A stretch of 64,000 nucleotides of DNA. Origin: Lytechinus pictus (lineage: Eukaryota). Shown here piece by piece: positions 2,661-64,000 of the stretch (positions are counted from its first letter, which is position 1; each line of letters opens with the position of its first letter). The stretch covers positions 5,396,001-5,460,000 of the forward strand of contig NC_087245.1 of the NCBI RefSeq assembly GCF_037042905.1. Direction: 5' to 3'. The position numbers and the translations under genes were made by a program. The notes beneath the pieces were generated by a model. That model saw only the letters and a list, made by a program, of their open reading frames with translations, did no database searches and was not told the origin of the DNA.

Positions 2661-3738
2661 ATTAAAAATTAAAATATTTATTTGAAACTTTAAGTTTTTC
2701 ACTTTCATTCTCAATTAATTAGAACTTCCAAGAGATCAGATGCAAATCTAAAGGTATTGTATTCTGGGAAATAACTTTAAATGTTCCGTATGGGACATTC
2801 CATCTTTGTACTTTACCTAATTTGCATATATTAAATTAGATGACTCCACTTTTTTTCTTGAAAGAGTAATACGATGTTGGGGGTCCATGTCCCACTATGA
2901 TTAAATATCAAAAGTTTTTTTGATTTTTCTACAAGTTTTTATAATTGTCCCATACATAACACCCATTTTTTATACCAATTATGCAAATCAGGAATATTTC
3001 TTAATGATTTTTAAAATGAAACATTTGGGCTTTCTTATCCAACCAATGATAGAGCAAAATAGAGATGAAATTTTGATTTATAGGGTGACCTTTTGTTGTA
3101 CATGCACTTCTGTCTAATTAAAAATTAATCAAAGATGTGTGGTCACATAAAAGACAGAACATTGCCTATGTGCCTGATTAATTTCTTGTGAAAATATGAA
3201 TTATAAACTAAAGAGACTTCCCTTGGTAATGTCTGATAAAAACTTTGGAACATTTATGTACATATTTGAATAGATAAAAGTACAATCAGACAAGCACAGT
3301 TTTTGATCCAGAAATTTTCACCCAATTTTGATGGTTTCCTACCAAGTACTGTAGGAAAAAAATAATAATTGGGGACGAGATAATTTTCACTCCGTCGGGT
3401 CGTCATCACCACTTCCGGTTCAGCTCGCGCGAGGTTCGCGATACTGAGTTTTCCACCACGCTGAAATCGATGCCAATCAGCGTAATATGTACAGATTATA
3501 ATACTTTTTATTTAATTTGGTCAGTTTTTATTCCATTTGAACTATGAATAAAAATAAAAAATATATTTCACGTGAAAATAATTTTTATTCATGTTTTTAT
3601 TTGGTTATAAAAATAGTAAACAAAAAATGAATATCTTAAAATTTTGCATTTAGCGACCGGCCTGACATCACGATCGTATTCGACTAGACGCTAAATATAT
3701 ACAGCATTCATTCCGTCCAATTTTTCGTCGACCACAAA

Positions 3739-3960
3739 ATGGATAAAAAATCAGTTTCGGAACTTAAAAAAATCTTAACTGACAGAGGAATACCGTGCAA
3801 TGGAAAGCGTCGGGCAGAATTAGTGACTTTAGCAGAAAAGGCCGTTAAACTGTATCGTGAAAGAGAGGGTTGTGATCACGAACTTTCCGAGCAAAAGCGA
3901 CGTTGTGTTGTTGTGCATGACGGCACTGTTGATCTGAATGGCAAAACAGTGCATTGGACT
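3739..3960 (+). pseudogene. Truncated transposon-gene fragment with an N-terminal SAP-like helix-extension-helix
   Basis: MDKKSVSELKKILTDRGIPCNGKRRAELV... has the SAP pattern. The ORF then runs into non-coding repeat sequence after ~4049. Confidence 0.45.
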
Positions 3961-4223
3961 TCCGAACGGGAAGTTGTAAATACCGAAAAGCTATCCCATA
4001 ATGCAATGCGCGTTACAGTGATTTTCCCGGATCTCGGCAAAATCGCTATTTGGGGTAGCGAGAATTGCCATCATAACTTTGAAAGTATATGGAGTAATCA
4101 AGTATCGCTTAACGGGAGCTTCAGGTCACATGAACAAGATCAAAATAAGGTCATTAAGTTCAATGAACTTTGGGCAATGTTGGTGATATTTGTTGAATTG
4201 CCATCATAACTTTGAAAGTTTAT

Positions 4224-12675: not shown

Positions 12676-13481
12676 CAGTGCGTCCCACAAAAAATGAAAC
12701 CAAGGTTTAGCGACAATTTATCATAACTAAATCACAAATACAATAGACAAATGACCTATCATTGTAAAGCTTAGAATGTCGTCTTTTAGCTGGTATAACA
12801 TACAAGATTTTTCATCCACGCATGAGTGAGTAAAAACAATTTGAAGAAAGAATAGCAAAAAGTCATTTGGCGGGGGTATCAAAATTTCAAAAAGAAAATC
12901 ACATGCCCAAAAAATTCAATATCTGCTCTTTAATTTGATAACTAAATCGCAGAAAAAGGTCAAGAAATACAAAGTTATGTTTCTCTAAAACAATGCTTGT
13001 ATTTCCATAATTTCATGAAACATACGTGTTTTCACCGGTTTCCCACCGAAGCTATCGCACAGTTAACAAAAGACTCTGCATGGCTGATCATCAACAAAAC
13101 TGAGTGTCGAGTAAGTCTAAAAGCTATCCTGTAAAACCTCTTCACTTTATGAAATTATTGGAATTCAAGCCTTATTTCAAACAAACAGAACTTTGTTATT
13201 TCTTGACCGTTTTCTGTAATTCAGGTATCAAATTAAAGAGCAGATATTGAACTTTTTAAAAATGTGATTTTCTTTTTGAAACTCAGATACCGCCTGCCAA
13301 GTGATTTTTTGGTTTCCTTTCTTCAAATTGTTTTTGCTCATGCAAGGATTAAGAATAATCTTAAGTTATTTCAAGTGAAAGAGGAGACCCTACGCTTTAC
13401 AATGATTTTTCTATTGTATTTGCGATTATGGCATGATAAATCATCTATAAATCTCGGTTTCGTTTTTTGTGGGACGCACTG
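12676..13481. mobile_element. Tc1/mariner-type MITE with long TIRs
   Basis: TA|CAGTGCGTCCCACAAAAAA...TTTTTTGTGGGACGCACTG|TA. Confidence 0.9.
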
Positions 13482-13811
13482 TATTTGAGATTATCAGTAA
13501 TCCTAGGGGATCGTGTGGAGCTGAATGTTTTCTCTTTATTATCTGTACTTACAGAGATCACCTACATATATACTCTTCCTTTATAATTGGGTTGATAATA
13601 TTCTGATCAGATTTCCTATTCAGGGGCTATTTTTCTTGTTTTTTCGTACCAATAATATTTTATATTGAATCCAATCATAATATAAGAAGCACCTTTCTCA
13701 TATATTCAATAGGAGAGTTGCTGAACAAACATGTAAGTTTTTTGGGGAAATTCCTTTCAGTCCATAGAAATTAAACTGCATGTACTATTTTTTTTCTGTA
13801 TCTTGTTGCAG

Positions 13812-15437
13812 ATTGAGATGGATGATGAAGTTGAAAACGATGTGAAAGATTCAGGAAGAGGTTTTGAGAAGCTCTCTACTTCCAAGAAGCTGCAGACCAT
13901 GAAGCGAAATCCCAAGACTGGGCAATATGAATGTCCATATTGCGTTTTTTGCTCTCCTTACTACAGTGCGGTGGCCAGTCACACCCTGATCCACACAGGT
14001 GAGAAACCATTTCGCTGTAAGATCTGCGGATACCGTGCTCGTCAACGAGGTCATGTCGTGGTTCATATGCAGATGCATGAGGAGCAGAAGCCATACAAGT
14101 GTGTTAAATGTGACTACTCCACAACCCAGCCATCTCACCTTCGAGTGCACATGAGGGTTCATGCTGATGAAGAGGAGAAGAATGAAGGAGATGGTAACTA
14201 CATTTCAGAACAGCTGGCTTCATTGAAAGAACAAATGAAGAGTGAGGAAGAGAAAATGCAGTTGTTTTCTTGTAATCAGTGTGATTATGTTACCAAGCGC
14301 AAGCACAATCTCATCCAGCACCTTGCGGTCCACACAGGAGCAAAACCCTACAAGTGTGATCTGTGTGACTACTCTTCCAGCCAGAAAGGTCACTTGAATG
14401 TTCATATTCGCACCCATACTAAGGAGAAGCCCTTCAAATGTCCCAAGTGTCCATTTGCATCAACAGTACCAAAGTCTCTGCGTGAACATCTCCAGATGCA
14501 CTATGGGCAACGCCCTCTGAAGTGTCCTTACTGTTCTTTTTCTTCCAGCCAGGCTTTCTCCATCAAGCGTCACATTGCCTTGCACGAGGAGGTAAAATCC
14601 TTTTCTTGCAAGTTCTGCAGCTACAAGACCACTGTTGAAGAGGATTTCAATCACCATAGGTCTATTCATACCCAGCAAGCCTCATACAAGTGCACATATT
14701 GTCCTTATGAGACACCTTTCAAGCATATCTTTGATACCCACATCCTGACCCATACTGAAGCTCTAGGCATTACCACTGAGAATCGTGTTCCTAAAGGAAA
14801 TATTCCATCAATGCGGTCCAGACAGGGCAGGAAGAATCGCCTTCGCAACACTAAAAAGAATGAAGTTCATGATGAACCGGAACCTGATAGGAAACTACAT
14901 GAAAGCCTGTTTATCCATCCACCAACCCCCTCATCTTTGAAAGAGCCCAAAGCCAGTCCTGTTCCTGGATTGGAGCCTGAGGACCTGATAGTTGATGTGA
15001 ATGAGGATGCCTACAAGCATGATGATGAGGTGGACTATCACCACATGGAATTTGCCAAAAACCCCAAGGCTGTCCGAAAGCAGACTTCTCCAACGCCTGC
15101 TGATGCGACTCGCACTGTATCCACTGCCATGCAGACAATGCCGGAACCTGTGACTGATGAGCTACCACCGACACCTACTCTCTCTGACAAGAGTGCTCCT
15201 TCTCTTCCCGACATTGCTACTCTTTCCGCTAATGATGGTGCATCTCAGCAGGATATCAATGAAGCTGAGGATGAACTGTCCTTGGTCAATATGGAAGCTA
15301 TGGAAGAAGAAATCGTGGTGGAGAATCCCATGAGTAAGCTCTTCACCTGTGAGTATTGTGATAAAGAATTGATCGGTCAAGAAGACTGGCGGCGACATGT
15401 GTCTCGTCACTTCATGGAATGGCCAGAAATCAACTGA
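13812..15437 (+). CDS. C2H2 zinc-finger transcription factor, large terminal coding exon (10 fingers: 3+6 clustered plus 1 isolated C-terminal; REST-like)
   Basis: 544-codon ORF with a polypyrimidine acceptor ttgcag|ATT at 13811/13812, repeated CxxC..HxxxH motifs with TGEKP-like linkers, a Pro/acidic spacer, a lone C-terminal finger FTCEYCDK...HVSRH and TGA at 15435-15437. Confidence 0.95.
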   Translation: MEMDDEVENDVKDSGRGFEKLSTSKKLQTMKRNPKTGQYECPYCVFCSPYYSAVASHTLIHTGEKPFRCKICGYRARQRGHVVVHMQMHEEQKPYKCVKCDYSTTQPSHLRVHMRVHADEEEKNEGDGNYISEQLASLKEQMKSEEEKMQLFSCNQCDYVTKRKHNLIQHLAVHTGAKPYKCDLCDYSSSQKGHLNVHIRTHTKEKPFKCPKCPFASTVPKSLREHLQMHYGQRPLKCPYCSFSSSQAFSIKRHIALHEEVKSFSCKFCSYKTTVEEDFNHHRSIHTQQASYKCTYCPYETPFKHIFDTHILTHTEALGITTENRVPKGNIPSMRSRQGRKNRLRNTKKNEVHDEPEPDRKLHESLFIHPPTPSSLKEPKASPVPGLEPEDLIVDVNEDAYKHDDEVDYHHMEFAKNPKAVRKQTSPTPADATRTVSTAMQTMPEPVTDELPPTPTLSDKSAPSLPDIATLSANDGASQQDINEAEDELSLVNMEAMEEEIVVENPMSKLFTCEYCDKELIGQEDWRRHVSRHFMEWPEIN

Positions 15438-32138: not shown

Positions 32139-34398
32139 AGTAGGACGAGTCCACCCCAACACATAGTTGATTTGCATGACAAGAGAAAAATCTAACAAAC
32201 ATAACACTGAAAATTTCACCAAAATGTAAAATAAGAAAGTTATGACATTTTAAAGTTTTGCTTAATTTCACAAAATAATTATATGTACATTCTGGTCGGT
32301 ATGCAAATGAGGAGACTGATGATGTCATCCACTCACTATTTCCTTTGTATTTTATCATATGAAATATTCTAATTTTCTCCTTATGTGGAATTAGCCTTGT
32401 TTAATACTATATGCTTCAGTCAAGTTGGCTGTTATTGTCAAATCTGTAAAAAATGAAATAATGTACAATTCAAACAATAAAAAACAAAAGAAATACTAGT
32501 AGTAGGAGTGGGCTATACATGGGTCAAAAATACTTTTTTTGTAATTTCAATATGACAACAGTTTTTTTTTATTCCTTGTAATGTATCTCAACATGAAATG
32601 ACAATATTTTTTGTCTCGGGTCCGAGAAAAAAGTGTGCCGGGCCAAAATCCAAAATGGCTGCCAAAACCCCCCAAAATCACAGTTTTGGCCACAACTTTT
32701 TTATTTGGTGGTCAATTTCTCTGGTTTTGGTGTCTATTCATATGTTTTGAGGGGCAGGCAATTTGTTTTTCCTATAATTAGTACTTTTAAACCGTTATTT
32801 GTAGAGTTAAAAGGTAATTATACCTAAATTTTCCCATTTTTGTAGCCTTTTTTCAGCCAAAAAGTAGGTTTTATCATCCTCGGGTTCTGGGATATTAGAT
32901 GGTACGAGGTCAACAATAGCAAGCAGCTTCATGTAGCTATATTGCTTTTATTCCTCCACTTTGGGTTTTACGGATATTTGTGAAATATATCTTATTAAAT
33001 AAAAAAATGTCAATTATCCATTGGGGCTATACAGTATACATATGTACAATGTACTGTATATACATACTGCACTGCATAAATGCATTGGCCCCCATGACAG
33101 ATAACAAGGCTTGTATAAACTATAGTGTCATAGAAATGAGCTCTCAGGTTTAGAATTAGATGCCTCAGAAATTGAAGATATGTTTTGTCTCAGAAATTGA
33201 GGACATGTTTTGTCAAATATGCTAATTCAGGGGGCGGAGAGAGGTAATTTACACTGTAGCTATTCTGGGCCCCGTTGCATAAAAATTTACCATTATGTTA
33301 ACTTAACTTAATGGTAACTTGCATGCAATCCTTTATTCTGATTGGCTGTTGATCAGCGTTACCATGATACTAGTAGTTACCTGACCCCATAAACATAGGC
33401 CGGTTAGACACCAGAACCAGGTTAAAAAAAAGCCTCCAAATGAAGAAGATATGGCTAAAAATGTGATGTACGTATATATACATGTATGTGATATTTACAT
33501 GTAAGTGTAATTTACGTTGCTGGTTTCACCATGTACATCAGCTGACAAGGAATCAAATTCACAATCTAATTCTAAACCTTTGAAGCTCATTTCTATGACA
33601 CTATTGTTTATATACAGGCCTTGTCATATGCCATGGTGGTCAATGCATGGATATATGCAGTGTAGTATGTACAGTGCATTGTACACCGTATAGCCCCTAT
33701 GGATAAATGACATTTTCTTTTATTTGATAAGATATATTTGATTTTTTCACAAATATCCGTAAAACCCAAAGTGGAGGAATAAAAGCAATATAGCTACATG
33801 AAGCTGCTTGCTATTGTTGACCTCGTACCATCTTATATCCCAGAACCCCAGGATGATAAAACCCACTTTTTGGCTGAAAAAAACGCTACAAAAATGGGAA
33901 AATTTAGGTATAATTACCTTTTAACTCTACAAATAACGGTTTAAAAGTACTAATTATAGGAAAAACAAATTGCCTGCCCCCCAAAACATATGAATAGACA
34001 CCAAAACCAGAGAAAATGACCACCAAATAAAAAAGTTGTGGCCAAAACTGTGATTTTGGGGGGTTTTGGCGGCCATTTTGGATTTTGGCCCGGCACACTT
34101 TTTTCTCGGACCCGAGACAAAAAATATTGTCATTTCATGTTGAGATAAGGTAAAAGGAACACAAAAAAACTGTTCCCACAGTAAAACCAAAAATCACCCA
34201 TTTATAGCCCACTCCTACTAGTAGTGAGTGAGGGACATCATCAAATTTAAAACAGTGTTTGTGGAAAAGACTAAACTTTAATCAAAATGTCATAACTTTC
34301 TTATTTTCCATCTGATTTTGATGAATTTTTCGGTGTTATGCTAGTTTGATTTTTCTCTATTTCTTCAATTCAACATTTTTTTGAGGTGGACTTGACCT
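32139..34398. mobile_element. TTAA-site (Kolobok-like) MITE split by a nested foldback element
   Basis: TTAA|AG..GGACGAGTCCACCCC at the left and GGTGGACTTGACCT|TTAA at the right. The host sequence aaagaaa-TA-gtgagtg is interrupted at 32494. Confidence 0.7.
32496..34221. mobile_element. 1.7-kb foldback element with ~650-bp inverted arms, TA TSD
   Basis: TA|CTAGTAGTAGGAGTGGGCTATA...TATAGCCCACTCCTACTAG|TA. The mirrored ORFs 32633-32827(+) and 33904-34098(-) are near-identical. Confidence 0.85.
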
Positions 34399-34545: not shown

Positions 34546-34996
34546 TAACCCAGGGACTAGGGTAGATTGTGGTCTCAATAACTTGGAAAGAAAATTGTGA
34601 AAACAGAAATTATGCACTTACGATTATATGGATGAAGGTCTATCGTGTGGCAGTATCCCGACATCAAGGCACAGACTGGTACCTCAAAAAAAACGAAAAA
34701 AGTTCTCTCCTACCCCAGTCTCGATCGGCCATTTTGTTATGAATTTTGAAAGAATTACGGTAGGAGAGGTATCGTGACAGAACTTTTCGTTTTTTTGAGG
34801 TTCCAGTCTGTGCCTCGATGTCAGGATACTGCCACACGATAGACCTTCATCCATATAATCGTGATAAGGGCATCATTTCTGTTTTCACAATTTTCTTTCC
34901 AAGTTATTGACATGCATGATTGAGACCACAATCTACCCTTGTCCCGTGTCTATGTCTAAATGCACGGTGGACTCCTGGCCGGAGCTCCCTGGGTTA
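34546..34996. mobile_element. Mutator-like foldback element (family TAACCCAGGG), internally deleted copy
   Basis: TAACCCAGGG...CCCTGGGTTA, with 9-bp TSD GGCTCCAGT at 34537-34545 and 34997-35005. Confidence 0.9.
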
Positions 34997-40420: not shown

Positions 40421-40449
40421 TATTAATACTTACTAACCTCGCACAACGC

Positions 40450-40978
40450 TAACCCAGGGAGCTTCCGCCCGCACAGCGGGCGGGAGCCCAGGAGCTTACC
40501 GTGTATTTGACCATAGTCACCGGACTAGGGTGATTTATGGTCTAAATATTTCTCCAAATGAATTGTGAAAACAGAAAGTATACAATTACCACGATTATGT
40601 GGATGAAGGTCCAACGAGTGGCAGTTTCCTGAGATCTGGGCACAGACTGGAACCTCAAAAAACCGAAACGTTATCTCCTTCTACCCCCGTTTCGATCGGC
40701 CATTTTTGTTAAAAATCGTAACAAAATGGCCGATCGAGACTGGGGTAGAGGAGATAACTTTTCGTTTTTTTGAGGTTCCAGTCTGTGCCCAGATCTCAGA
40801 AAACTGCCACTCGTTAGACCTTCATCCATATAATCGTGGTAATTGTATACTTTCTGTTTTCACAATTCATTTGGAGAAATATTTAGACCATAAATCACCC
40901 TAGTCCGGTGACTATGGTCAAATACATGGTAAGCCCCTGGGCTCCTGCCCGCTGCGCGGGCGGGAGCTCCCTGGGTTA
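40450..40978. mobile_element. Mutator-like foldback element (family TAACCCAGGG), near-perfect 529-bp hairpin
   Basis: TAACCCAGGGAGC...GCTCCCTGGGTTA, with 9-bp TSD GCACAACGC at 40441-40449 and 40979-40987. Confidence 0.92.
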
Positions 40979-41042
40979 GCACAACGCATGTCATTTCATA
41001 ATGAATTTTGACGTTTTCATTCATCACATGAATGTGAGAGAA

Positions 41043-43009: not shown

Positions 43010-44331
43010 CAGTCTTGAGGACGCAATGATGATGACTTTTAAAATCCTGTCATATACTTCATCAGTGACGTCTTGAACAGGCCTTCATAGACATGTAAGA
43101 GAACGAAGTAAACAAAGATGGATTTCCCTAGGAAATCAATCTTTACATAACAGAATCGCGTGAAATATGTTTATTTTATTAATTTCTACACCTTCCTACG
43201 CCTAATGCGTAGGAAGGTTTTAAAAAATGTTAGATAAAAATGTAAAAAATAAAGGTTTCTTACCTAACTGATGCTGCGTAGATCCCTCGATCCACATGTA
43301 ACAACGGAAATACAATAGCGTCGACCCTTGAACCGCTTGTGTAAGACGTACTTCCGGCTAGCAATGCCGTTTTGAAGAACAATTTATAGATGAAAATTAT
43401 TATTTCACAAATACTAAAATTTATTACGTAATTATAAATAATTGGTATTATAATTACGTAATAAATTTTAGTATTTGTGAAATAATAATATTTATCTATA
43501 TTTCTTCAAAACAACATTGCTAGCCGGAAGCACGTCATACATAAGCGGTTCAAGGGTCGACGCTATTGTATTTCCGTTGTTTACATGTGGATCGAGGGGT
43601 CTACGCAGCATCAGTTAGGTAAGAAACCTTTATTTTTTACATTTTTATCATCTCCCCAGTACCTTATTTCACTTATCAAAAGTTATACCCTTTCAAGATC
43701 CTTACGTTCCTCCTTTTCCAATTCTCTTGTTACCCCCAAAATTTCCAAAACCTGGGGTGAAAGATCATTTGTTTACTCATCCTCTAAGCTATGGAATAGC
43801 CTCCCTCAAAACATGAAACAGTGCTTGACTTCTGAAACTTTCAAACATTACCTCAAAACATTTCTGTTCAATTCTTCTTAATTTCTTTTATAATTTTTAA
43901 AAAGCGCCTTGAGCACTCTACAGAGTGGATTTGGCGCGATATAAGTCTAATTATTATTATTATTATTATCTAACATTTTTTAAAACCTTCCTACGCATTA
44001 GGCGTAGGAAGGTGTAGAAATTAAAAATTAAAAATTAAAAAGCGCCTTGAGCACTCTACAGAGTGGATTTGGCGCGATATAAGTCTAATTATTATTATTA
44101 TTATTATCTAACATTTTTTTAAACCTTCCTACGCATTAGGCGTAGGAAGGTGTAGAAATTAATAAAATAAACGTATTTCACGCGATTCTGTTATGAAAAG
44201 ATGGATTTCCTAGGGAAATCCATCTTTGTTTACTTCGTTCTCTTACATGTTTATGAAGGCCTGTTCAAGACGTCAATGATGAAGAAGTATATGATATTTT
44301 AAAAGTCATCATCATTGCGTCCTCAAGACTA
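43010..44331. mobile_element. Mutator-like foldback element interrupted by a LINE tail
   Basis: (C/T)AGTCTTGAGGACGCAATG...CATTGCGTCCTCAAGACTA, 9-bp TSD GAATCAATG at 43001-43009 and 44332-44340, symmetry centre ~43440. Confidence 0.9.
43650..43970 (+). mobile_element. 5'-truncated non-LTR retrotransposon (L2/CR1-like) 3' end
   Basis: Translates PQYLISLI...SRSLRS...WGERSFVYSSSKLWNSLP...FKHYLKTFLF*, typical of an L2/CR1 ORF2 C-terminus, followed by a short 3'UTR and an (ATT)n tail. Confidence 0.85.
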
Positions 44332-44856: not shown

Positions 44857-47442
44857 CAGGGCATAAATTAATCGACGGCCAGGCCGTCGATACCCCTAGC
44901 CCTATAACTGGCCGTGATGCCCATACAAAAAAAAATCAATTCACGGCTAAAAAGGCCGTGCCCTTTTTTCAAAACTGGTCATGACCTTACTCAGTGTAAG
45001 ATTAAGGTTTACAAAGTTCTCCCATATTTCACAAGCAAAAATACAGAAGAGAGAGAGAAAAAAAAAAGTTAACAACTTTCCTCAATTCAAACTGCAAGCC
45101 ATTTTCCGTGATTTTCTTGGATCTACACAGACACACACACGCAAAGTCAGCATGCAGTGTACATGTACTAGCTGCTGCACATGGCCTGGCCTGCCTGCCT
45201 GTGTGGTGTGTGGCAGGCTTGCATTATCGGAGGAGATTTGCAAACTCTGAGCAAAGTGAACAATCTCACATGATTAGCAGTTTTTCCAACAAAATAATCA
45301 CAAAATCGGCAGGAAATATTTATAATTACATACAATGGATTCTCAGATTAATGATTTGGTGATGTAATCAGAGGAGCAAGTTATTGAGTTTTCATTACTG
45401 GAGCGGTCTAGTTCAGCTTTTGTTTTGAGTCTTCTTCGCGCCGATAACAAGAAGACACGGCAATGGGAAGAGAGATGCCTAGCCTGTATAGGGGTGATGC
45501 CGCGATGTTTCACCTAATTTTTAAGTTTGACAATGTTTCACTTTGAAATTTTATTCGTTTCTAATACATTTCAGTTTTCTAACAATTTTTAAATAATATA
45601 TTATAAAAAAAAACAAATATCAGTAAGATTTTTGTTAGATGATTACATTTGTTTTCTTTGCTTGAAGTTTGAATTTTTTTCCCTCTAATTCTTTCTTCAT
45701 TTCTTTCTTTATTGCTTTCTTTTCATTTTTCTTTCTTTTCTATCCTTTTTTCTTCATCCTTTCTTCTATCCTTCCTGCTTGCTTTTTTTTGGTTCTATCT
45801 TATTGCAAATCTTTCCTAGCTTTCTTTCCTGATCCTTTCTGTTCATTTTTTGTTCTTTCCTTCCTTTTTTTACTTTCCTTCTTTTATTTCCTTTCTTCTT
45901 TCCCTAATTTTTTTGCTCCCTTCTCCTTTTTTCTTTTCATTCTTTCTTTCACTAGCTCACTCTTTCTTCTTTCCTACTTTCATTCATTTCTTGCTTTCAC
46001 TCTCTCTTCGCTTCATTCTTTCCTTCCTTTCATTCCTTTTCTTTTCCTTTCCCTTATTCTTTCTTATCTTCCTGATTTTTTCTTTTTCTCTTTCTTTTGT
46101 CCATTCCTTCTCTCTTCGTCCTATCTTTTCTGAATTCCCTTTTCCATTCCATCTATCTTTATCATTATTTCCTAGCTTTCCTTCCCTTTTTTCTGTGTTC
46201 ATTTATTTTCTTCATTCTTTCCTTTACATGTCCCTCATTGTTTTTTTCTTTCTATCTTTCTTTCTTTCTTTCTTCTTTCTTTCTTTACTTTTTTCTCTTT
46301 GATACTTTCCTTCTCTTTTTAATTTCATTTTTTATAAATTTCCTTCATTCTTTTAAAATTTTCTTTGCTTCCTTTTCCCTTCCTCTCCCTTTTCTTTTTG
46401 TTCTTTCTCTCCTTCCATTCTTTTCTTCTCTTTTCATTCTCTCCTTCCTCTCTTTTATCATTTATTCTTTCTTTATTTTCTTTTTTTTCCTTTTTGCTTT
46501 TCCCTTCCTTCCTGTCTTCTTTCTTTTTCTCAAAGAATGAAGGAAACATTTTTCTTTCCTTCCTTCATTCCTTCATTCATCCTCAGTCTTTTTCTTACCT
46601 TCTTTTTTTCTTTCTCTTTATTTCTTTCAAACATTCATTCATCATCCCTTCCTTTCTTTTTCTTTTTAAGAATGAAGGAACCTTTTTTTTCCTTTCCTTT
46701 ATTATTTCTTTCATCCTTCTTTTATTCTAACTTTCTTTTCACTGTTTTTTTTCCCTTCATTTTCTTTACTTCATTATTCCCCTACATTTTTTCTTTCTTC
46801 TCCATTCATCTCTTTTCTTTCTCTCCTTCATTCTTTATTTCACCCATTTGTTCACCCTCCCTTCCTTTCCTTTTCTTTCTTTATATTTTTATTTCTCTCT
46901 TCATTTCTTTTATAATTAATTTCAGTGATTCCTTTTTTATTTTGTGCCACGGTCACAAAAGTACATGAAAATATATGAGAGAGGAAATCATTCAAATGGC
47001 ATATCAACACACTAATTTTGGTCATGGCCGGCAAGATAAAATCACTTTGAAAAAAAATATATAATTTTACAAATACAAGGTACATCAGTTCATGTTAAAA
47101 ACAGGAAAAAGGCAATGGTACATGTCCATAGAAGAGCAATTCTTTCCTTTAAACGGTAATATCCTGTTTTGAAATATTTTTTGGGGGGCAAGTGAAATAT
47201 ATATTCGGGCAAGTATTGTCCAACTATTTAGAAATAAAAAGATGTTATGTAGCACCCTGTACAAGTTTTAATACATTTGACATCTAAAAAAAAGGATACC
47301 GAAAAAAAAAGGCCTTTGATGCCCTTCTTGGAAAAAGATTTTGGCCTTGGTGCCCTTTGAAGTGGCCTTGGTGCCCTAAAAAATATGAGGTATTTCAAGG
47401 CCAAACTGGCCTTGCCCTAAAAATGACAAAATTTAAGGCCTG
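44857..47442. mobile_element. hAT-like non-autonomous element with 6-bp TSD, containing a long polypyrimidine tract
   Basis: CAGGGCATAAATT...AATTTAAGGCCTG, with GTATCG at 44851-44856 and 47443-47448. Confidence 0.65.
45670..46940 (+). repeat. ~1.3-kb CT-rich low-complexity (polypyrimidine/polypurine) tract
   Basis: Nearly continuous ttct/ttcc/tctt sequence. Confidence 0.95.
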
Positions 47443-54115: not shown

Positions 54116-54664
54116 AGTTGCCATCTTCCACTTCTCTTGCTTGACGAATGACTCCATTTTCTGCGTTACAGACGGGCGTATTATGTGCTTGCCTTAACGA
54201 CACTCTTGTTTTAAATAAATTCACAACTTTTAATGTATAAGGGCCTATTTCTCTGACGTAATCAAGTATCACTGACCATCTGGTATGAGTTTTGGGTCAC
54301 ATGATTGAGGTCAAGGGCCATTAAGGTCAATAATCTTTGACCATGTTGTGGTATCAGTATAGACAATATAAACAAGGTTAAGATTTTGAATTTTTTGGAT
54401 AATTTTGCAAGTATACCGTAAGTCCCTCTTAAGTGGACATAATTTTAGGTCACTTGACAAAGATCAAAGATCATTTGCGGTGAACAAACTAAGGCTTTCA
54501 TTATCAAATGAATGTTTGTTTTTTCCCTATCTTTTTAAGAAATTGGTCATCAGAAATGCGTTGTTTTCAATGTCTGCATTGCTGCTATATTTAATTGCGT
54601 AATGCAGGCAAGACTTCCTTAGGTGTTCCATTTGTTGAATGTTTATATCCCATTTCCCTTGCAG

Positions 54665-54760
54665 CTCTTAGGTGCTTGTGTGAGTAATTGTGGCAAGCCA
54701 TTCCATCAGGAGGTAAGCTCAAGAGACTTCTGTGCCGATGCCAGGAATATTGTCAGTAAG
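54665..54760 (+). CDS. STAM: STAM exon 4 (VHS domain)
   Basis: ttgcag|CTC...AAG|gtgagt, translating [32 protein letters not shown]. Confidence 0.95.
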
Positions 54761-55977
54761 GTGAGTGTGGCAAAAGAAACGGGTATGGGATATACATGAA
54801 AAATGGTCTAAGAGACAAATAATACTGTATATACCGGTAATGAGTTGGACATATGAAAGAAGATACATCATTTACCTGCTGATAATGGGCTAATTCGGTT
54901 GATAGCCTTATCATTTTACTTGTTCAGTGTACCGGTTCTGACAAAATTAAACCCAAATCCTATAAATGGAAACAATTAGAAACTAGGATGTTTTACCAAT
55001 TCAACACCTACACAAATAAATAGCGTAACAACTAATATGACCTTTCACTAAAAAACAAACAACTTTACCAGCAGAACCTGACCTTTCATGAAGAAAGAAA
55101 TTGTTTGAAGTGGGCTGATGACTAACTGTACACAGTACATGTATGGTCCACTATTGTAATTCATAAAATAAAGTAGTACCACATAAGAATATTATTTAGT
55201 ATTTCATCATAGTAAATTTCTTTCCCTCATTGGTATTATGCTTATATTCCTTGGAAGATTTACCTTTTTGTCTAGCCTGAACGAAGTTTGGTAGAGACCT
55301 ACATGTACATGTAGTTATCACTTTTCCTGTTGGTCCGTTGGTCTAGTGGTCTGTTACAAAAAGTGTTATAGTTTTTGTTCAACATGGTCTCATTTATTTA
55401 TTTCTGCATCGATTGTTTTCATACTTGGTACAAATGATTCTTGAGTAGGACCACATGTGAGCTTATGAGAATGATGGGGTCAAAGGTCATCTAGGGGTCA
55501 AAACTCAAAAGGTCAAATGATATGAGGTAGTGTCCATCCTTTTTTCAAGTTTTTGTGCAACTTGCTCTCATTTTTTATTTCTGCATCAATTATGTTTATG
55601 CAATCATTGGGTAGTACATGTACCTTGAGGATGACAAGGTCATCTAGGGGTCAAAAGATCATATTAAATATTTTATTGATAGAAAAATCAGGTGAGGCTC
55701 ATTGGTCATGGACCACCTTATAATGTCAGTCCTACATGTATAATACATTACATACATTTTGGAAGTTATGTAGTGCCTTTCCATAATCAAATGCTCAAAG
55801 CACTTTGCAATAACATACGGTATTAAAGATCTATTGTGCTCTCCTAGTGCTAATAATATTCATAGAGGACTACATTTATCAGAGAAAAATAGTGTTTTGA
55901 ATATACATTTTTTTATACAAAGGATCAGACTCTTTGCAGTCGTGTGGGAATTCCCAAGACTGATACATGTATGACAA

Positions 55978-58946: not shown

Positions 58947-59029
58947 GGCCATCCTAAGGTTTCTGAGAAGATGAGACTATTACTGAAGGACTGGTCAGAG
59001 AAAGAAATGAAGAATGATCCCTCATGCAG
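58947..59029 (+). CDS. STAM: STAM exon 5 (VHS domain)
   Basis: tttcag|GGC...AG|gtatgg, translating GHPKVSEKMRLLLKDWSEKEMKNDPSC(S). Confidence 0.93.
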
Positions 59030-60027: not shown

Positions 60028-60201
60028 ATCAGTTTTATCATCATATGGCCTGACTACTGATAAAGTTGTACTTTCACAATTCACTTACTATTTTCAAGTG
60101 CCCAGTTTAGTCATACATAGACTAGAACATGTGACAATTATTAATTATCAATCCTCATGTTATCACAATTTATCGTTTTTCTTTTTATTTCTTATATCTA
60201 G

Positions 60202-60271
60202 TCTAATTACACAGCTGTATAACAGTCTTAAAACAGAAGGGTTTGGTTTCTCTTCATCAGATGATACACCT
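60202..60271 (+). CDS. STAM: STAM exon 6 (end of VHS domain); gene continues beyond the window
   Basis: atctag|T CTA...CCT|gtgagt, translating LITQLYNSLKTEGFGFSSSDDTP, in phase with exon 5. Confidence 0.88.
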
Positions 60272-61434
60272 GTGAGTATTCCTCGTGTTATTATACAAAT
60301 AATGCACTGTTGTATGAAGTGTGTTATAGCAGAAACAGTGTACAATGTTTCATCATTGCAAGTGAAAGGACATGTACCAAAACAGATCAGTGCATGATTT
60401 GTTTTGTAAGAAAGATATCAGAAATGCCATCTGAACATATATACAACAATCTTATCTAGACCCAAAGCCTAATGTGCATAAAATGTTTTCAAAATACATG
60501 CTTTAAAAAAAAAGTCTGTCAAACATATTATTCCAAATATGAAAAAGATCTTGTAGTGTTGATAGATGTTTGAAAGTCTCTTCTATCAGGTGATGCACAC
60601 ACACACAAAAATAATTCATTCTTGAGCAAACACTTTTTAGTGTGACAAATGACCTTGCACCAAAATGAATGGTATAGGACAGTGGAAGCCACAGTCTGAA
60701 TTAAGTACTTTTTCCTGCAGCAAGCTATTTTGCAGTATGCAAATATCATTCTGCATTATATAGAATACTAATTTTCTTAATTGTTTTAGGCAGAAATTAG
60801 GGGCGATTCAAGAAAATCTGGTTGCCCCAATGCATCTCATTTGGCTAATTTTAGGGGCACTTAGGGCTGTCATACAGGTGAAATAGTTGGATGCCCCCAT
60901 GTGTTTCCCATGTTGCACTACAGGCACTCAAACACTCTAGAGAAATATAATAGTTTTACAATTGTACTATATGATGAATGGAAGAAACTATGATACTATG
61001 ATACAAACCCGCTTGCCCGGGGCAAGTGAAGATGAAGTGCAGGCATCAGGCGAGCATTTCTCAAAGTCAATTGCCCGATCGGGCAAGTGGTTTTTTTGGA
61101 AATGAAAAATATCAAATGACAGTAAATTTCAATAAATTTTGGATAGATCACAATTATTGACCAAATATCTCTCATACACTACTCAAAAAAAGTTAAGGAC
61201 CACTTTTTAAAACGTACATAAAGATTTTATACAAGGTGTTTTATTTCTGGAAATACCTCAGTACAACTGTCCTAAATGTCCTTAAACACGCTGTAATCAA
61301 TTTCACGCATGGGTGGTTTCAGTTGTTGCACAATGTCTCTCGCATCACTGCACATCCTGAAAAGTGGGCCCCGAGGGGTATCAGCTACCGACATGAAGTG
61401 GTAAAAACGAATGTCTGAGTGTCTTTCAGGCAGT

Positions 61435-62463
61435 TCAGTAACGAGTGTGACCACCTCCTGCAGCAATAACGGCTTCACAGCGCTGTCTCATGGAGCTGAT
61501 GAGGCGATTGATGTCTCTGACGTCCAGTGCATCCCATGCAGCCTCCAGAGCCACACCCAGCTGCTGCAGTCCAAGTGGATGGGCTTCGAGCTGCTCGAGA
61601 CTCCTCCCCATCATGTCCCAGACGTGCTCTATCGGGTTTAAGTCCGGGGACCTCGCTGGCCACTCCATACGCTCAATCCCCTGGCCCTCAAGGAACTCGG
61701 TCACCACCCTAGCTCGGTGGGCACGGGCATTGTCATCCATGAAAATGATGTTTTGTCCCACATTTTCTGCAAATGGCACCACTATAGGTTCAAGGACCTC
61801 ATCCCTGTACCTCACTCCTGTCATTGCTCCCCCTGGGACCACGTAGAGACGAGTACGGTTGGCGTAGGTGATGCCTCCCCACACCATGACGCTGCCTCCC
61901 CCATAACGGTCATGTTCTGCAATACAGGGGTCTGCAAATCTCTCTCCTGGTCGCCTCCAGACTCTCGAACGTCCATCATTGTGGTCAAGGGAAAATCTGC
62001 TCTCATCTGTGAACAGAACTCTACGCCATTGCTGTCTGGTCCATCTGACATGCTCCCGGGCCCAGTTGAGACGAATTCTTCTGTGAGCAGGGGTGAGTGG
62101 GACACACTGAGCTGGCCGTCTGGCATGCATATTGGCTCTGTGAAGTCGGTTACGGATTGTTTGAGTGGAAACAATCACTCCAGTTGCTGCAGCGAAGTCA
62201 TTGTTGAGGCGGCGTGCACTGTGAAAGCGGTTGCGGAGGCTGAGATTCGTCAAGTAGCGATCATCTCTAGGGGTTGTCGAAACTGGTCGGCCACTGCGGG
62301 GTCTCTCGGAGTATAGCCCTGTCTCTCGGTGTCTTTGATTTGCTCTGCTAATGACACTGTGTGACACGCCCATCATTCTGGCTACTCTTCGCTGACTGAG
62401 GCCAGCTTCCAGCATCCCTAGGGCTCTGGCTACATCTGTTTCACTTAGGTGGTGTCTTGGCAT
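61435..62463 (-). CDS. Tc1-family DD34E transposase, 342 aa, intact (left copy)
   Basis: MPRHHLSE... paired-like HTH region, GRP motif, TDESRF, MDDNARAH and WPARSPDLNPIEHVW, with 34 residues between the second D and the E. Confidence 0.95.
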   Translation of the reverse strand: MPRHHLSETDVARALGMLEAGLSQRRVARMMGVSHSVISRANQRHRETGLYSERPRSGRPVSTTPRDDRYLTNLSLRNRFHSARRLNNDFAAATGVIVSTQTIRNRLHRANMHARRPAQCVPLTPAHRRIRLNWAREHVRWTRQQWRRVLFTDESRFSLDHNDGRSRVWRRPGERFADPCIAEHDRYGGGSVMVWGGITYANRTRLYVVPGGAMTGVRYRDEVLEPIVVPFAENVGQNIIFMDDNARAHRARVVTEFLEGQGIERMEWPARSPDLNPIEHVWDMMGRSLEQLEAHPLGLQQLGVALEAAWDALDVRDINRLISSMRQRCEAVIAAGGGHTRY

Positions 62464-62467
62464 TGCT

Positions 62468-62803
62468 ATCCAGCTGTCCAGGATGCCATCAAACACAATG
62501 AAATCAATTTCACACATGCAGTTCTTTCATGTCTCTTGCATCATTGCAATGTGCCCGTACAAAAGTGGCTTCCAAAGCATTTTCTGTCTTTAGTCTCTAC
62601 AATCAACAACTTGCTGACAATAGCAATGCCAAGATACAGCTGTCCAGAATGCCATCAAACACAATGACATCAATTTCACACATGCAGTTCTTTCATGATG
62701 TCTCTGGCATCATTGCAGTGGGCCATAAGACAAGTGTCTTCCAAAGCATTTTCTGTCTTTAGTCTGTACAATCAACAACTTGCCTACAACAGCAATGCCA
62801 AGA
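62468..62803 (+). repeat. Two tandem ~166-bp units forming the spacer of the Tc1 palindrome
   Basis: cagctgtcc at 62471 and 62637. Each unit ends in agcaatgccaaga and resembles the subterminal sequence at about 61263-61370. Confidence 0.85.
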
Positions 62804-63823
62804 CACCACCTAAGTGAAACAGATGTAGCCAGAGCCCTAGGGATGCTGGAAGCTGGCCTCAGTCAGCGAAGAGTAGCCAGAATGATGGGCATGTCACACA
62901 GTGTCATTAGCAGAGCAAATCAAAGACACCGAGAGACAGGGCTATACTCCGAGAGACCCCGCAGTGGCCGACCAGTTTCGACAACCCCTAGAGATGATCG
63001 CTACTTGACGAATCTCAGCCTCCGCAACCGCTTTCACAGTGCACGCCGCCTCAACAATGACTTCGCTGCAGCAACTGGAGTGATTGTTTCCACTCAAACA
63101 ATCCGTAACCGACTTCACAGAGCCAATATGCATGCCAGACGGCCAGCTCAGTGTGTCCCACTCACCCCTGCTCACAGAAGAATTCGTCTCAACTGGGCCT
63201 GGGAGCATGTCAGATGGACCAGACAGCAATGGCGTAGAGTTCTGTTCACAGATGAGAGCAGATTTTCCCTTGACCACAATGATGGACGTTCGAGAGTCTG
63301 GAGGCGACCAGGAGAGAGATTTGCAGACCCCTGTATTGCAGAACATGACCGTTATGGGGGAGGCAGCGTCATGGTGTGGGGAGGCATCACCTACGCCAAC
63401 CGTACTCGTCTCTACGTGGTCCCAGGGGGAGCAATGACAGGAGTGAGGTACAGGGATGAGGTCCTTGAACCTATAGTGGTGCCATTTGCAGAAAATGTGG
63501 GACAAAACATCATTTTCATGGATGACAATGCCCGTGCCCACCGAGCTAGGGTGGTGACCGAGTTCCTTGAGGGCCAGGGGATTGAGCGTATGGAGTGGCC
63601 AGCGAGGTCCCCGGACTTAAACCCGATAGAGCACGTCTGGGACATGATGGGGAGGAGTCTCGAGCAGCTCGAAGCCCATCCACTTGGACTGCAGCAGCTG
63701 GGTGTGGCTCTGGAGGCTGCATGGGATGCACTGGACGTCAGAGACATCAATCGCCTCATCAGCTCCATGAGACAGCGCTGTGAAGCCGTTATTGCTGCAG
63801 GAGGTGGTCACACTCGTTACTGA
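62795..63823 (+). CDS. Tc1-family DD34E transposase, 342 aa, intact (right copy)
   Basis: Same protein as the left copy except V->M (GVSHS/GMSHS) and R->W (WAREH/WAWEH). Confidence 0.95.
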   Translation: MPRHHLSETDVARALGMLEAGLSQRRVARMMGMSHSVISRANQRHRETGLYSERPRSGRPVSTTPRDDRYLTNLSLRNRFHSARRLNNDFAAATGVIVSTQTIRNRLHRANMHARRPAQCVPLTPAHRRIRLNWAWEHVRWTRQQWRRVLFTDESRFSLDHNDGRSRVWRRPGERFADPCIAEHDRYGGGSVMVWGGITYANRTRLYVVPGGAMTGVRYRDEVLEPIVVPFAENVGQNIIFMDDNARAHRARVVTEFLEGQGIERMEWPARSPDLNPIEHVWDMMGRSLEQLEAHPLGLQQLGVALEAAWDALDVRDINRLISSMRQRCEAVIAAGGGHTRY

Positions 63824-64000
63824 ACTGCCTGAAAGACACTCAGACATTCGTTTTTACCACTTCATGTCGGTAGCTGATACCCCTCGGGGCCCACTTTTCA
63901 GGATGTGCAGTGATGCGAGAGACATTGTGCAACAACTGAAACCACCCATGCGTGAAATTGATTACAGCGTGTTTAAGGACATTTAGGACAGTTGTACTGA

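What the first reader, a model, noticed from the sequence alone, without database searches (positions are those of the whole stretch)
61177..64000. Giant-palindrome Tc1 transposon with two intact, divergent DD34E transposase genes
Seen: 61258-62467 and 62791-64000 are reverse complements. Each arm holds a full 342-aa transposase, the arms are separated by only 323 bp, and a TA|CACTACTC terminus lies at 61177. The spacer contains no terminal sequence, so this is not two whole elements side by side. It is one unit whose inverted repeats (~1.3 kb) include the whole gene. Known: Tc1 elements normally carry one transposase between much shorter TIRs. Inference: TIR extension by template switching made an autonomous foldback element of about 2.9 kb. 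It could be driven by a central bidirectional promoter, and read-through from the host STAM intron would give a >1.2-kb hairpin RNA against its own family (a self-silencing trigger).
Basis: partly seen in the sequence, partly recalled or inferred. Interest (0 to 1): 0.85.

Follow-up and report, generated by a model that had tools for sequence, protein, structure and literature searches.

The report
Mirror-image Tc1 with two transposase genes
A jumping gene inside a host intron has lost its front end and carries a mirror-image copy of its own back part instead, so it holds two unbroken transposase genes; it likely arose by a DNA-repair error, is probably still mobile, and would make a long hairpin RNA if read through, which is not shown.

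Summary
Observation confirmed: 61258-62467 and 62791-64000 are reverse complements (2 mismatches in 1210), each with an unbroken 342-aa DD34E Tc1 transposase. It is not a new family plan. Contigs of 4 of 4 public runs laid show the usual form to be a single-gene Tc1 of about 1.9 kb. The 323-bp spacer is that parent's 5' leader, and the left arm is an inverted copy of the parent from 4 bp before the ATG to the right terminus: a 'two right ends' derivative. Such 3'-3' rearrangements are in print (Rpmar17/49 of Rhodnius, Goblin of Aedes) but short and non-autonomous; two whole genes is the new part. Both mismatches are CpG transitions, which argues against an assembly artefact. The fold-back junction itself was not found in any outside data, and the right terminus lies beyond the window. 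The scan found this before on other DNA: an unchecked note reports a 2905-letter twin 2.4 Mb away, exactly the length symmetry predicts here. Bidirectional promoter, autonomy and self-silencing are untested. New variant of a known kind; interest 0.4.

The parts
61175..61176 (.). TA target dinucleotide left of the element
   Evidence: sequence; 4 other flanks of the family also keep ATA before the terminus (table 7)
61177..62467 (-). Left arm, 1291 nt: inverted copy of the parent from 4 nt before the start codon to the right terminus
   Evidence: one contig of run X11 matches 61181-62467 with 0 other letters and goes on into the ordinary leader at 62790 (table 8)
61177..61371 (.). Terminal inverted repeat region, right-end type, about 195 nt; the parent's left end shares the outer 34 nt and an inner 74 nt (6 differences) and differs in the 87 nt between
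   Evidence: joints 61210-61298 and 61371-62557 and record 13 of X14 (tables 5 and 8)
61240..61245 (-). AATAAA, candidate polyadenylation signal of the left gene; mirror predicted at 64013-64018 on the plus strand
   Evidence: function inferred
61435..62463 (-). Left transposase gene, 342 aa, DD34E, identical to the family protein in the public collection (P0121, 18 contigs)
62464..62517 (-). In-frame upstream ATG made by the junction; would add 18 residues (360 aa)
   Evidence: not found in the protein collection
62468..62470 (.). Fold-back junction: three letters between the left arm and the parent-type leader, two matching the parent and one not
   Evidence: parent-type contigs start to match at 62471 (table 8)
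62468..62633 (+). Spacer unit 1 of the parent's 5' leader (166 nt; ends in a copy of the start-codon context)
   Evidence: joint 62636 back to 62471 in X9, X11, X14
62634..62802 (+). Spacer unit 2 of the parent's 5' leader (169 nt, 88% like unit 1; runs into the true start codon)
   Evidence: junction 62790|62791 held by 4 of 4 runs
62791..64000 (+). Right arm as far as the window goes (terminus predicted at 64081)
62795..63823 (+). Right transposase gene, 342 aa, DD34E, with two changes V33M (62891) and R136W (63200), both CpG transitions
   Evidence: exact protein not in the collection
60202..60271 (+). Host exon just upstream of the insertion (gene with a VHS domain), donor site at 60272
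   Evidence: spliced contig of X1 (table 7); Pfam VHS on the frame at 54623-54796
61003..61176 (.). Multi-copy host repeat directly left of the insertion
   Evidence: depth 1651 against 2 in the intron and loose ends at 61003, 61057, 61140 in X1; extent to 61176 inferred from likeness of the loose letters

Best explanation
This is a 'two right ends' derivative of a young single-gene Tc1 transposon: the front 285 or so bases are gone and an inverted copy of the gene and right end stands in their place, likely made by template switching during repair of an excision gap, and the unit is probably still moved whole by the family's transposase. Shown: the anatomy, the ordinary parent, the terminus, the two open frames, the intron position. 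Inferred: after excision, repair synthesis from the left broken end copied the outer 34 nt that both ends share, switched to the right end and ran inwards through the whole gene; synthesis from the right ran through the gene and two leader units; the two strands were joined with a one-letter scar. With two right ends the unit would be a substrate for transposase from any copy. The right gene keeps 324 nt of its leader and may be expressed; the left gene keeps 4 nt and is most likely a silent passenger. Read-through from the host gene would fold into a 1.2-1.3 kb hairpin over the whole coding sequence and could end at the AATAAA predicted just past the window; that is a possible side effect, not a shown function.
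For: Parent: the leader-to-ATG junction is held at the depth of the gene in 4 of 4 runs; three runs (X1, X9, X14) also hold a left end that joins TIR-like 61371 to leader 62557 and skips the left gene (table 5); length by my sum 1896 bp with one unit 1. Left arm equals the family sequence (0 other letters in 1287 nt, X11). Real DNA: both arm differences are CpG transitions, chance about 8e-4 for random errors; the centre is asymmetric native leader, not a read fold-back point. Printed precedent: Goblin, formed by template switch from left to right TIR with a one-letter scar (PMC3814204, section 12 and passages); Rpmar17 and Rpmar49, 5' part replaced by 3' part, 227 and 13 copies (PMC4678618, passages). 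Ends of one type can transpose: Mos1 with two right ends was 26 times more active than the natural form in vitro (PMC4505599, section 25). Lead only: note e1-7908973 gives 2905 letters for a twin 2.4 Mb away, the length I computed from symmetry.
Against: No outside data held the fold-back junction: 0 of 29 listed pieces bridge 62467|62468 (99 not shown), and in X9, X11 and X14 the depth of that bin is fully accounted for by ordinary contigs; no exact match of a 32-nt junction pattern in metagenome or genome contigs; the junction-made 18-residue extension is absent from the protein search. Contigs drop rare forms, three of the four runs carry other organism labels, and X1 is RNA-like, so these blanks are weak. 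The right terminus and second TA are unread. Microhomology at the junction is only 2 nt, so the repair path is not fixed by the sequence. [quoted passage not shown]
Confidence: 0.68

Rival explanations
1. Same anatomy, but a one-off: the rearrangement happened at this site during repair or replication and has never moved.
For: Junction found in no outside data. Most Rpmar17 copies have private breakpoints and were judged not to have transposed (PMC4678618, passage).
Against: The left end is an intact terminus at a TA.
Confidence: 0.1
2. Origin from a dimer: a second copy inserted in opposite orientation in or next to the first, and a deletion removed both left ends, leaving the two outer right ends as a composite unit.
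For: This is the authors' hypothesis for Rpmar17 and Rpmar49. The parent has a TA right at the unit boundary where the junction lies (joint 62636 to 62471; sequence).
Against: Needs two events. Earlier notes speak of about 150 such elements with different lengths (2064, 2312, 2537, 2905 letters, unchecked), which a single repair path explains more simply.
Confidence: 0.1
3. One reading: an autonomous palindromic family in its own right, both genes driven by a central bidirectional promoter, and a hairpin RNA that silences the family.
For: Both frames are open with intact catalytic triads. Tc1/mariner promoters commonly lie between TIR and ATG (PMC6446368, passage), and 324 nt of that leader remain. 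The arms pair fully in a fold of the central 659 nt (trivial for a palindrome). Fold-back of read-through RNA is a known Tc1 silencing route (PMC3878927, passage).
Against: The spacer is asymmetric and one-way, left unchanged from the parent; no TATA-like word on either strand. The left gene is identical to the family sequence, so its open frame reflects youth, not selection; the right gene already has two replacement changes, V33M at a site that is V in 109 of 117 aligned relatives. The RNA-like host run X1 holds the ordinary junction at depth 69 and no listed fold-back piece. For Mu killer itself the read-through hairpin model was contested (PMC3440606, passages).
Confidence: 0.07
4. Assembly artefact: a fold-back chimera of long reads or a mis-join between two copies of a young repeat.
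For: Arms 99.8% identical; left flank is itself a multi-copy repeat; junction not seen in outside contigs; right flank unread.
Against: Both differences are CpG transitions; the centre is 323 nt of unmirrored leader with a one-letter scar; the left arm ends exactly at the family's terminus and a TA; twin of equal length noted elsewhere (unchecked).
Confidence: 0.05

Closest known systems
Rpmar17 and Rpmar49 mariner lineages of Rhodnius prolixus (PMC4678618; abstract in the listing and passages of section 13 read; supplements not seen)
   Same: 5' part replaced by the 3' part, giving very long inverted repeats with transposase homology; 227 rearranged copies in Rpmar17, 13 in Rpmar49 that spread by transposition.
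   Different: Non-autonomous and mostly 900-950 bp; the longest is over 1700 bp, too short for two whole genes (my inference). Mariner DD34D, not Tc1 DD34E.
Goblin, MITE from Ozma in Aedes aegypti (PMC3814204; abstract, section 12 and passages read)
   Same: [quoted passage not shown]
   Different: 213 bp, non-coding, 6-bp microhomology; here 2.9 kb, two whole genes, 2-nt microhomology.
Rearranged mariner MITEs of Drosophila (PMC4161770; passages read)
   Same: One end replaced by an inverted copy of the other, unusually long TIRs, seven sublineages that transposed.
   Different: 5'-5' rather than 3'-3'; short and non-coding.
Mu killer of maize (PMC3440606; passages read)
   Same: Inverted duplication of about 1.3 kb of a transposase gene between two ends of one type, next to host genes; proposed hairpin silencer.
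   Different: MULE superfamily; duplicates the 5' end and only part of the gene; single locus with shown silencing. Here no silencing is shown.
Ordinary DD34E Tc1 elements (PF01498 + PF13358); nearest named protein KAG1665120.1 of Nymphon striatum, 90.5% identical over 337 aa
   Same: Transposase, TA target, terminal repeats; the parent family is one of these.
   Different: One gene between a left and a right end.
Bacterial composite transposons Tn5 and Tn10 (recalled, no call)
   Same: Two inverted transposase genes, outer ends move the whole.
   Different: Built of two whole IS elements with four ends around cargo; here there are no inner termini and no cargo.

Membership tests
Tc1 (DD34E) family | DDE triad with 34 residues between second D and E | tested here: met
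   D153, D244, E279 in both arms
Tc1 (DD34E) family | Paired-like HTH plus DDE_3 domain in about 340 aa | tested here: met
   PF01498 and PF13358 above cut-off, 342 aa
Tc1 (DD34E) family | TA target at the terminus | tested here: met
   Left side only: TA at 61175-61176 and 4 other flanks
Tc1 (DD34E) family | TA duplicated on both sides, terminal repeat at both ends of this copy | not testable with these tools
   Right end lies beyond 64000; no genome held
Tc1 (DD34E) family | One gene between a left and a right end | tested here: not met
   Two genes, two right-type ends; met by the parent form in the runs. So: a derivative of a Tc1, not a canonical member
IR/DR subgroup of Tc1 (Sleeping Beauty type; definition recalled) | Direct repeat of the outer binding site inside a 200-250 bp TIR | tested here: inconclusive
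   TIR region about 195 nt, but best 18-nt match of the outer motif inside was 12 of 18, within the shuffled range 11-13
3'-3' rearranged Tc1/mariner derivatives (Rpmar17/49, Goblin) | 5' part replaced by an inverted copy of the 3' part of an ordinary parent | tested here: met
3'-3' rearranged Tc1/mariner derivatives (Rpmar17/49, Goblin) | Short and non-autonomous | tested here: not met
   About 2.9 kb with two unbroken frames; works like them in origin, differs in coding capacity
3'-3' rearranged Tc1/mariner derivatives (Rpmar17/49, Goblin) | Copies with the same breakpoint at several sites | not testable with these tools
   No genome; only an unchecked note of a 2905-letter twin
Foldback elements (FB, Galileo) | Long, internally repetitive, non-coding TIRs | tested here: not met
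   Arms are coding and hold no tandem modules; Galileo feature from the abstract in the listing
Mu killer-type silencer | Inverted duplication of transposase sequence inside host transcription | tested here: met
Mu killer-type silencer | Hairpin or antisense RNA and silencing of the family in trans | not testable with these tools
   Only contigs were served, no stranded or small-RNA reads
Composite transposon (Tn5/Tn10 type; recalled) | Two whole elements, four termini | tested here: not met
   Terminal 8-mer occurs once in the window; spacer has none

The most novel reading that the evidence does not exclude
A palindromic Tc1 lineage that is autonomous: it makes transposase from its right gene (perhaps also an 18-residue-longer form from the left), out-transposes its parent because two right ends are the better pair, and in any intron, in either orientation, yields a polyadenylated 1.3-kb hairpin over the whole coding sequence. 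It would be a mobile element that carries both its engine and its own family's off-switch.
Probability: 0.15. Interest if true: 0.75.

Novelty: new variant of a known kind. Interest (0 to 1): 0.4.

Why it matters
Rearrangements that replace one end of a Tc1/mariner element with the other are known, but the printed cases I read are short and non-coding. A form with two whole genes shows the first, undeleted stage of that process and makes a general question testable in a young, active family: do such mirror-image by-products trigger the small-RNA shut-down of DNA transposons in animals, as Mu killer does in maize? None of my 10 paper searches (open-licence PMC and bioRxiv only; most hits seen as listings) returned a natural Tc1 with a whole transposase gene in each inverted arm. 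Without RNA evidence it remains a structural curiosity, and by earlier notes one of many such by-products in this genome.

Tried and rejected
Whole-genome copy count: no genome held. Junction pattern of 32 nt: 0 matches in metagenome contigs and in prokaryote genome contigs, collections unlikely to hold it. Protein scans: no relative in viral contigs; 14 distant loci in metagenome contigs, 28-44% identical, none of the 14 with a gene-length inverted repeat (longest inverted self-hit 358 nt); 9 weak hits in prokaryote genomes, not used. Junction-made 360-aa form: not in the collection; a search with its first 40 residues gave 3 hits of 5 candidates, all covering only the 22 ordinary residues. 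Earlier findings by sequence and by near place: nothing. No listed contig crossed from the left flank into the element, so presence of this insertion in the sample behind X1 and the empty site are unknown. Inner direct repeats of the TIR: not above chance. Fold of the central 659 nt: pairs as any palindrome must, no weight given. Rejected: two whole elements side by side (no inner termini); two 'divergent' genes in the sense of sequence (they differ by 2 nt); palindrome as the family's normal form. No structure or complex prediction was run, as it would not bear on the question.
Full report
What is there. The window ends in an inverted repeat with arms 61258-62467 and 62791-64000, 1210 nt each, two mismatches, 323 nt apart. 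Five base-shuffled windows gave inverted hits of at most 72 nt. Each arm carries an unbroken 342-aa frame, pointing outwards, with the Tc1 HTH and DDE_3 families and a D153-D244-E279 triad, DD34E. Left of the mirrored part lie 81 more bases that begin with TA and CACTACTC at 61177; symmetry puts the partner terminus at 64081, giving 2905 bp. That end cannot be read: the window stops at 64000 and no genome is held.

The terminus and the host site. Four contigs from three public runs follow the window to 61172-61174 and then leave into other flanks, all keeping ATA before 61177 (table 7; one mixed row set aside, 14 rows not shown). So 61177 is the family's true end and TA its target. A contig of run X1, which carries the same organism label as the best holders, joins the exon ending at 60271 to the exon ending near 59029 and, downstream, to letters absent from the window. 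X1 is therefore RNA-like and the element lies in an intron. Earlier notes call the host a sea urchin, and two runs labelled echinoderm metagenome hold the arm; I did not test the host's identity.

The spacer is the parent's leader. It consists of two tandem units, 62468-62633 and 62634-62802, 88% alike, each made of a degenerate copy of the inner terminal repeat (71-73% like 61262-61352) and about 60 further bases that end in the start-codon context. I laid 4 of the 24 listed runs on 60100-62790. All four hold the junction from the leader (62790) into the gene at the depth of the gene. X1, X9 and X14 hold a joint from 61371 to 62557 with 11 letters between, and X9 and X14 a joint 61210 to 61298: a left end that shares the outer 34 nt and an inner 74 nt with the right end and leads straight into the leader. 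X9, X11 and X14 hold a step back from 62636 to 62471, a further tandem unit. Summed, the ordinary element is about 1896 bp with one gene, its ATG about 609 nt from the left end (the number of units varies among copies). The window's element is that parent from 62471 rightwards; the first 285 or so bases are gone, and in their place stands an inverted copy running from 4 nt before the ATG to the right terminus. It has two right ends.

Is it real? No outside data held the fold-back junction 62467|62468: 0 of 29 listed pieces bridge it (99 not shown), and the depth of that bin is accounted for by ordinary contigs in X11 (34.8 against 34.8), X14 (536.5 against 536.5) and X9 (257 against 256). In X1 a remainder is not assigned to listed pieces; an unlisted contig of unit 1 would explain it, but I could not see it. 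Pattern scans and a search for the 18 residues that the junction adds to the left frame were blank. These blanks are weak: contigs drop rare forms and three runs bear other organism labels. For reality: the left arm equals the family sequence (0 other letters in 1287 nt, X11; protein identical to P0121), and both differences in the right arm are CpG transitions (GTG to ATG after a C; CGG to TGG), which two random errors would give with a chance near 8e-4. The centre is unmirrored native leader with a one-letter scar, not the sharp mirror point of a fold-back read. These are unchecked; I could test only that 2905 equals my predicted length. They moved my odds from 'one-off' towards 'mobile unit'.

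How it most likely arose and works. The printed model for Goblin is gap repair after excision, a template switch from the left to the right terminal repeat, and end joining with a one-letter scar (PMC3814204, section 12 and passages). The shared outer 34 nt offer that switch here; the junction shows two parent-matching letters and one odd letter, which fits but does not prove it. The rival is deletion from an inverted dimer, the hypothesis given for Rpmar17 and Rpmar49 (PMC4678618). Two like ends can work: 26 times better than the natural pair for Mos1, 3 times worse for Mboumar-9 right ends (PMC4505599, section 25). Promoters of Tc1/mariner elements commonly lie between TIR and ATG (PMC6446368, passage), so the right gene, with 324 nt of leader, may still be expressed; the left gene has 4 nt and faces the antisense of the leader. 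Nothing supports a two-way promoter, and no TATA-like word lies in the spacer. The open left frame is explained by youth. Host read-through would cross antisense then sense and could fold back over 1.2-1.3 kb; an AATAAA is predicted at 64013-64018 on that strand, so a polyadenylated hairpin is possible in either orientation. Fold-back of read-through RNA is a known route to Tc1 silencing (PMC3878927, passage). Against a simple silencer story: X1 holds family contigs with the ordinary junction at depth 69, beside 75 on the host exon and 2 in the intron (contig depth is a poor measure of expression), and for Mu killer the read-through model was contested (PMC3440606, passages).

Comparison and novelty. 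It works like the 3'-3' derivatives of Rhodnius and Aedes and the 5'-5' ones of Drosophila (PMC4161770). It differs in keeping two whole genes; the longest Rpmar17 copy, over 1700 bp, is too short for that (my inference; supplements of that paper were not seen and may hold its sequence). It fails the tests for a canonical Tc1, a foldback element and a composite transposon. Ten searches of the open library gave no natural Tc1 with a whole gene in each arm; subscription journals and repeat databases were not searched. Verdict: real with high probability, a new variant of a known kind, probably mobile, with autonomy and silencing untested. Interest 0.4; 0.75 if it proves to be an autonomous lineage that makes its own silencing hairpin (probability about 0.15).

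In passing. Runs labelled as four other organisms hold 0.51-0.52 of the query words where the element part makes up 0.54, and the three laid show no depth on the host exon: the ordinary family seems to be shared almost letter for letter among species, or the samples are mixed. A sea spider protein is 90.5% identical.

Noticed in passing
window 61181-62790 against runs X9, X11, X14: The single-gene family is held almost letter for letter by runs labelled organisms B, C, D and E (X11: 0 other letters in 1287 nt) while the three laid lack the host exon 60202-60271; points to very recent horizontal spread among marine animals, or to mixed samples. A Nymphon striatum protein is 90.5% identical.
   Followed up: partly
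window 62468-62802: The family's 5' leader is a tandem of 166-169 nt units, each a degenerate inner TIR plus a copy of the start-codon context; unit number seems to vary among copies (joint depth 0.6 to 1.25 of the gene's). Repeated upstream ATGs may dampen translation or favour template switches near the start codon.
   Followed up: partly
window 12676-13481: About 800-bp element starting TA-CAGTG and ending CACTG-TA, 74% self-complementary over its whole length: an older hairpin-shaped Tc1/mariner-type derivative.
   Followed up: no
window 43011-44330: 1320-bp element with 245-bp inverted ends (93%), flanked by a direct repeat of about 9-10 bp, MULE-like; holds a 417-bp near-perfect palindrome at 43233-43649.
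   Followed up: no
window 32495-34225: 1731-bp element with inverted arms of about 670 bp, 88% alike, ends beginning ACTAGTAG; kind unknown.
   Followed up: no
window 40448-40980 and 34553-34945: Two related palindromic elements (533 bp, 94% self-complementary; 393 bp, 79%), the first flanked by a short direct repeat.
   Followed up: no
whole window: TACATGTA occurs 56 times in 64 kb, as note e1-7787614 reports for another piece; not tested against a shuffle here.
   Followed up: partly
window 13737-15437: Long single frame of 566 aa with many C2H2 zinc fingers.
   Followed up: no
window 3688-4209: 173-aa frame with a SAP domain, perhaps part of a mobile element.
   Followed up: no
window 45600-47000: Long pyrimidine-rich low-complexity tract.
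   Followed up: no
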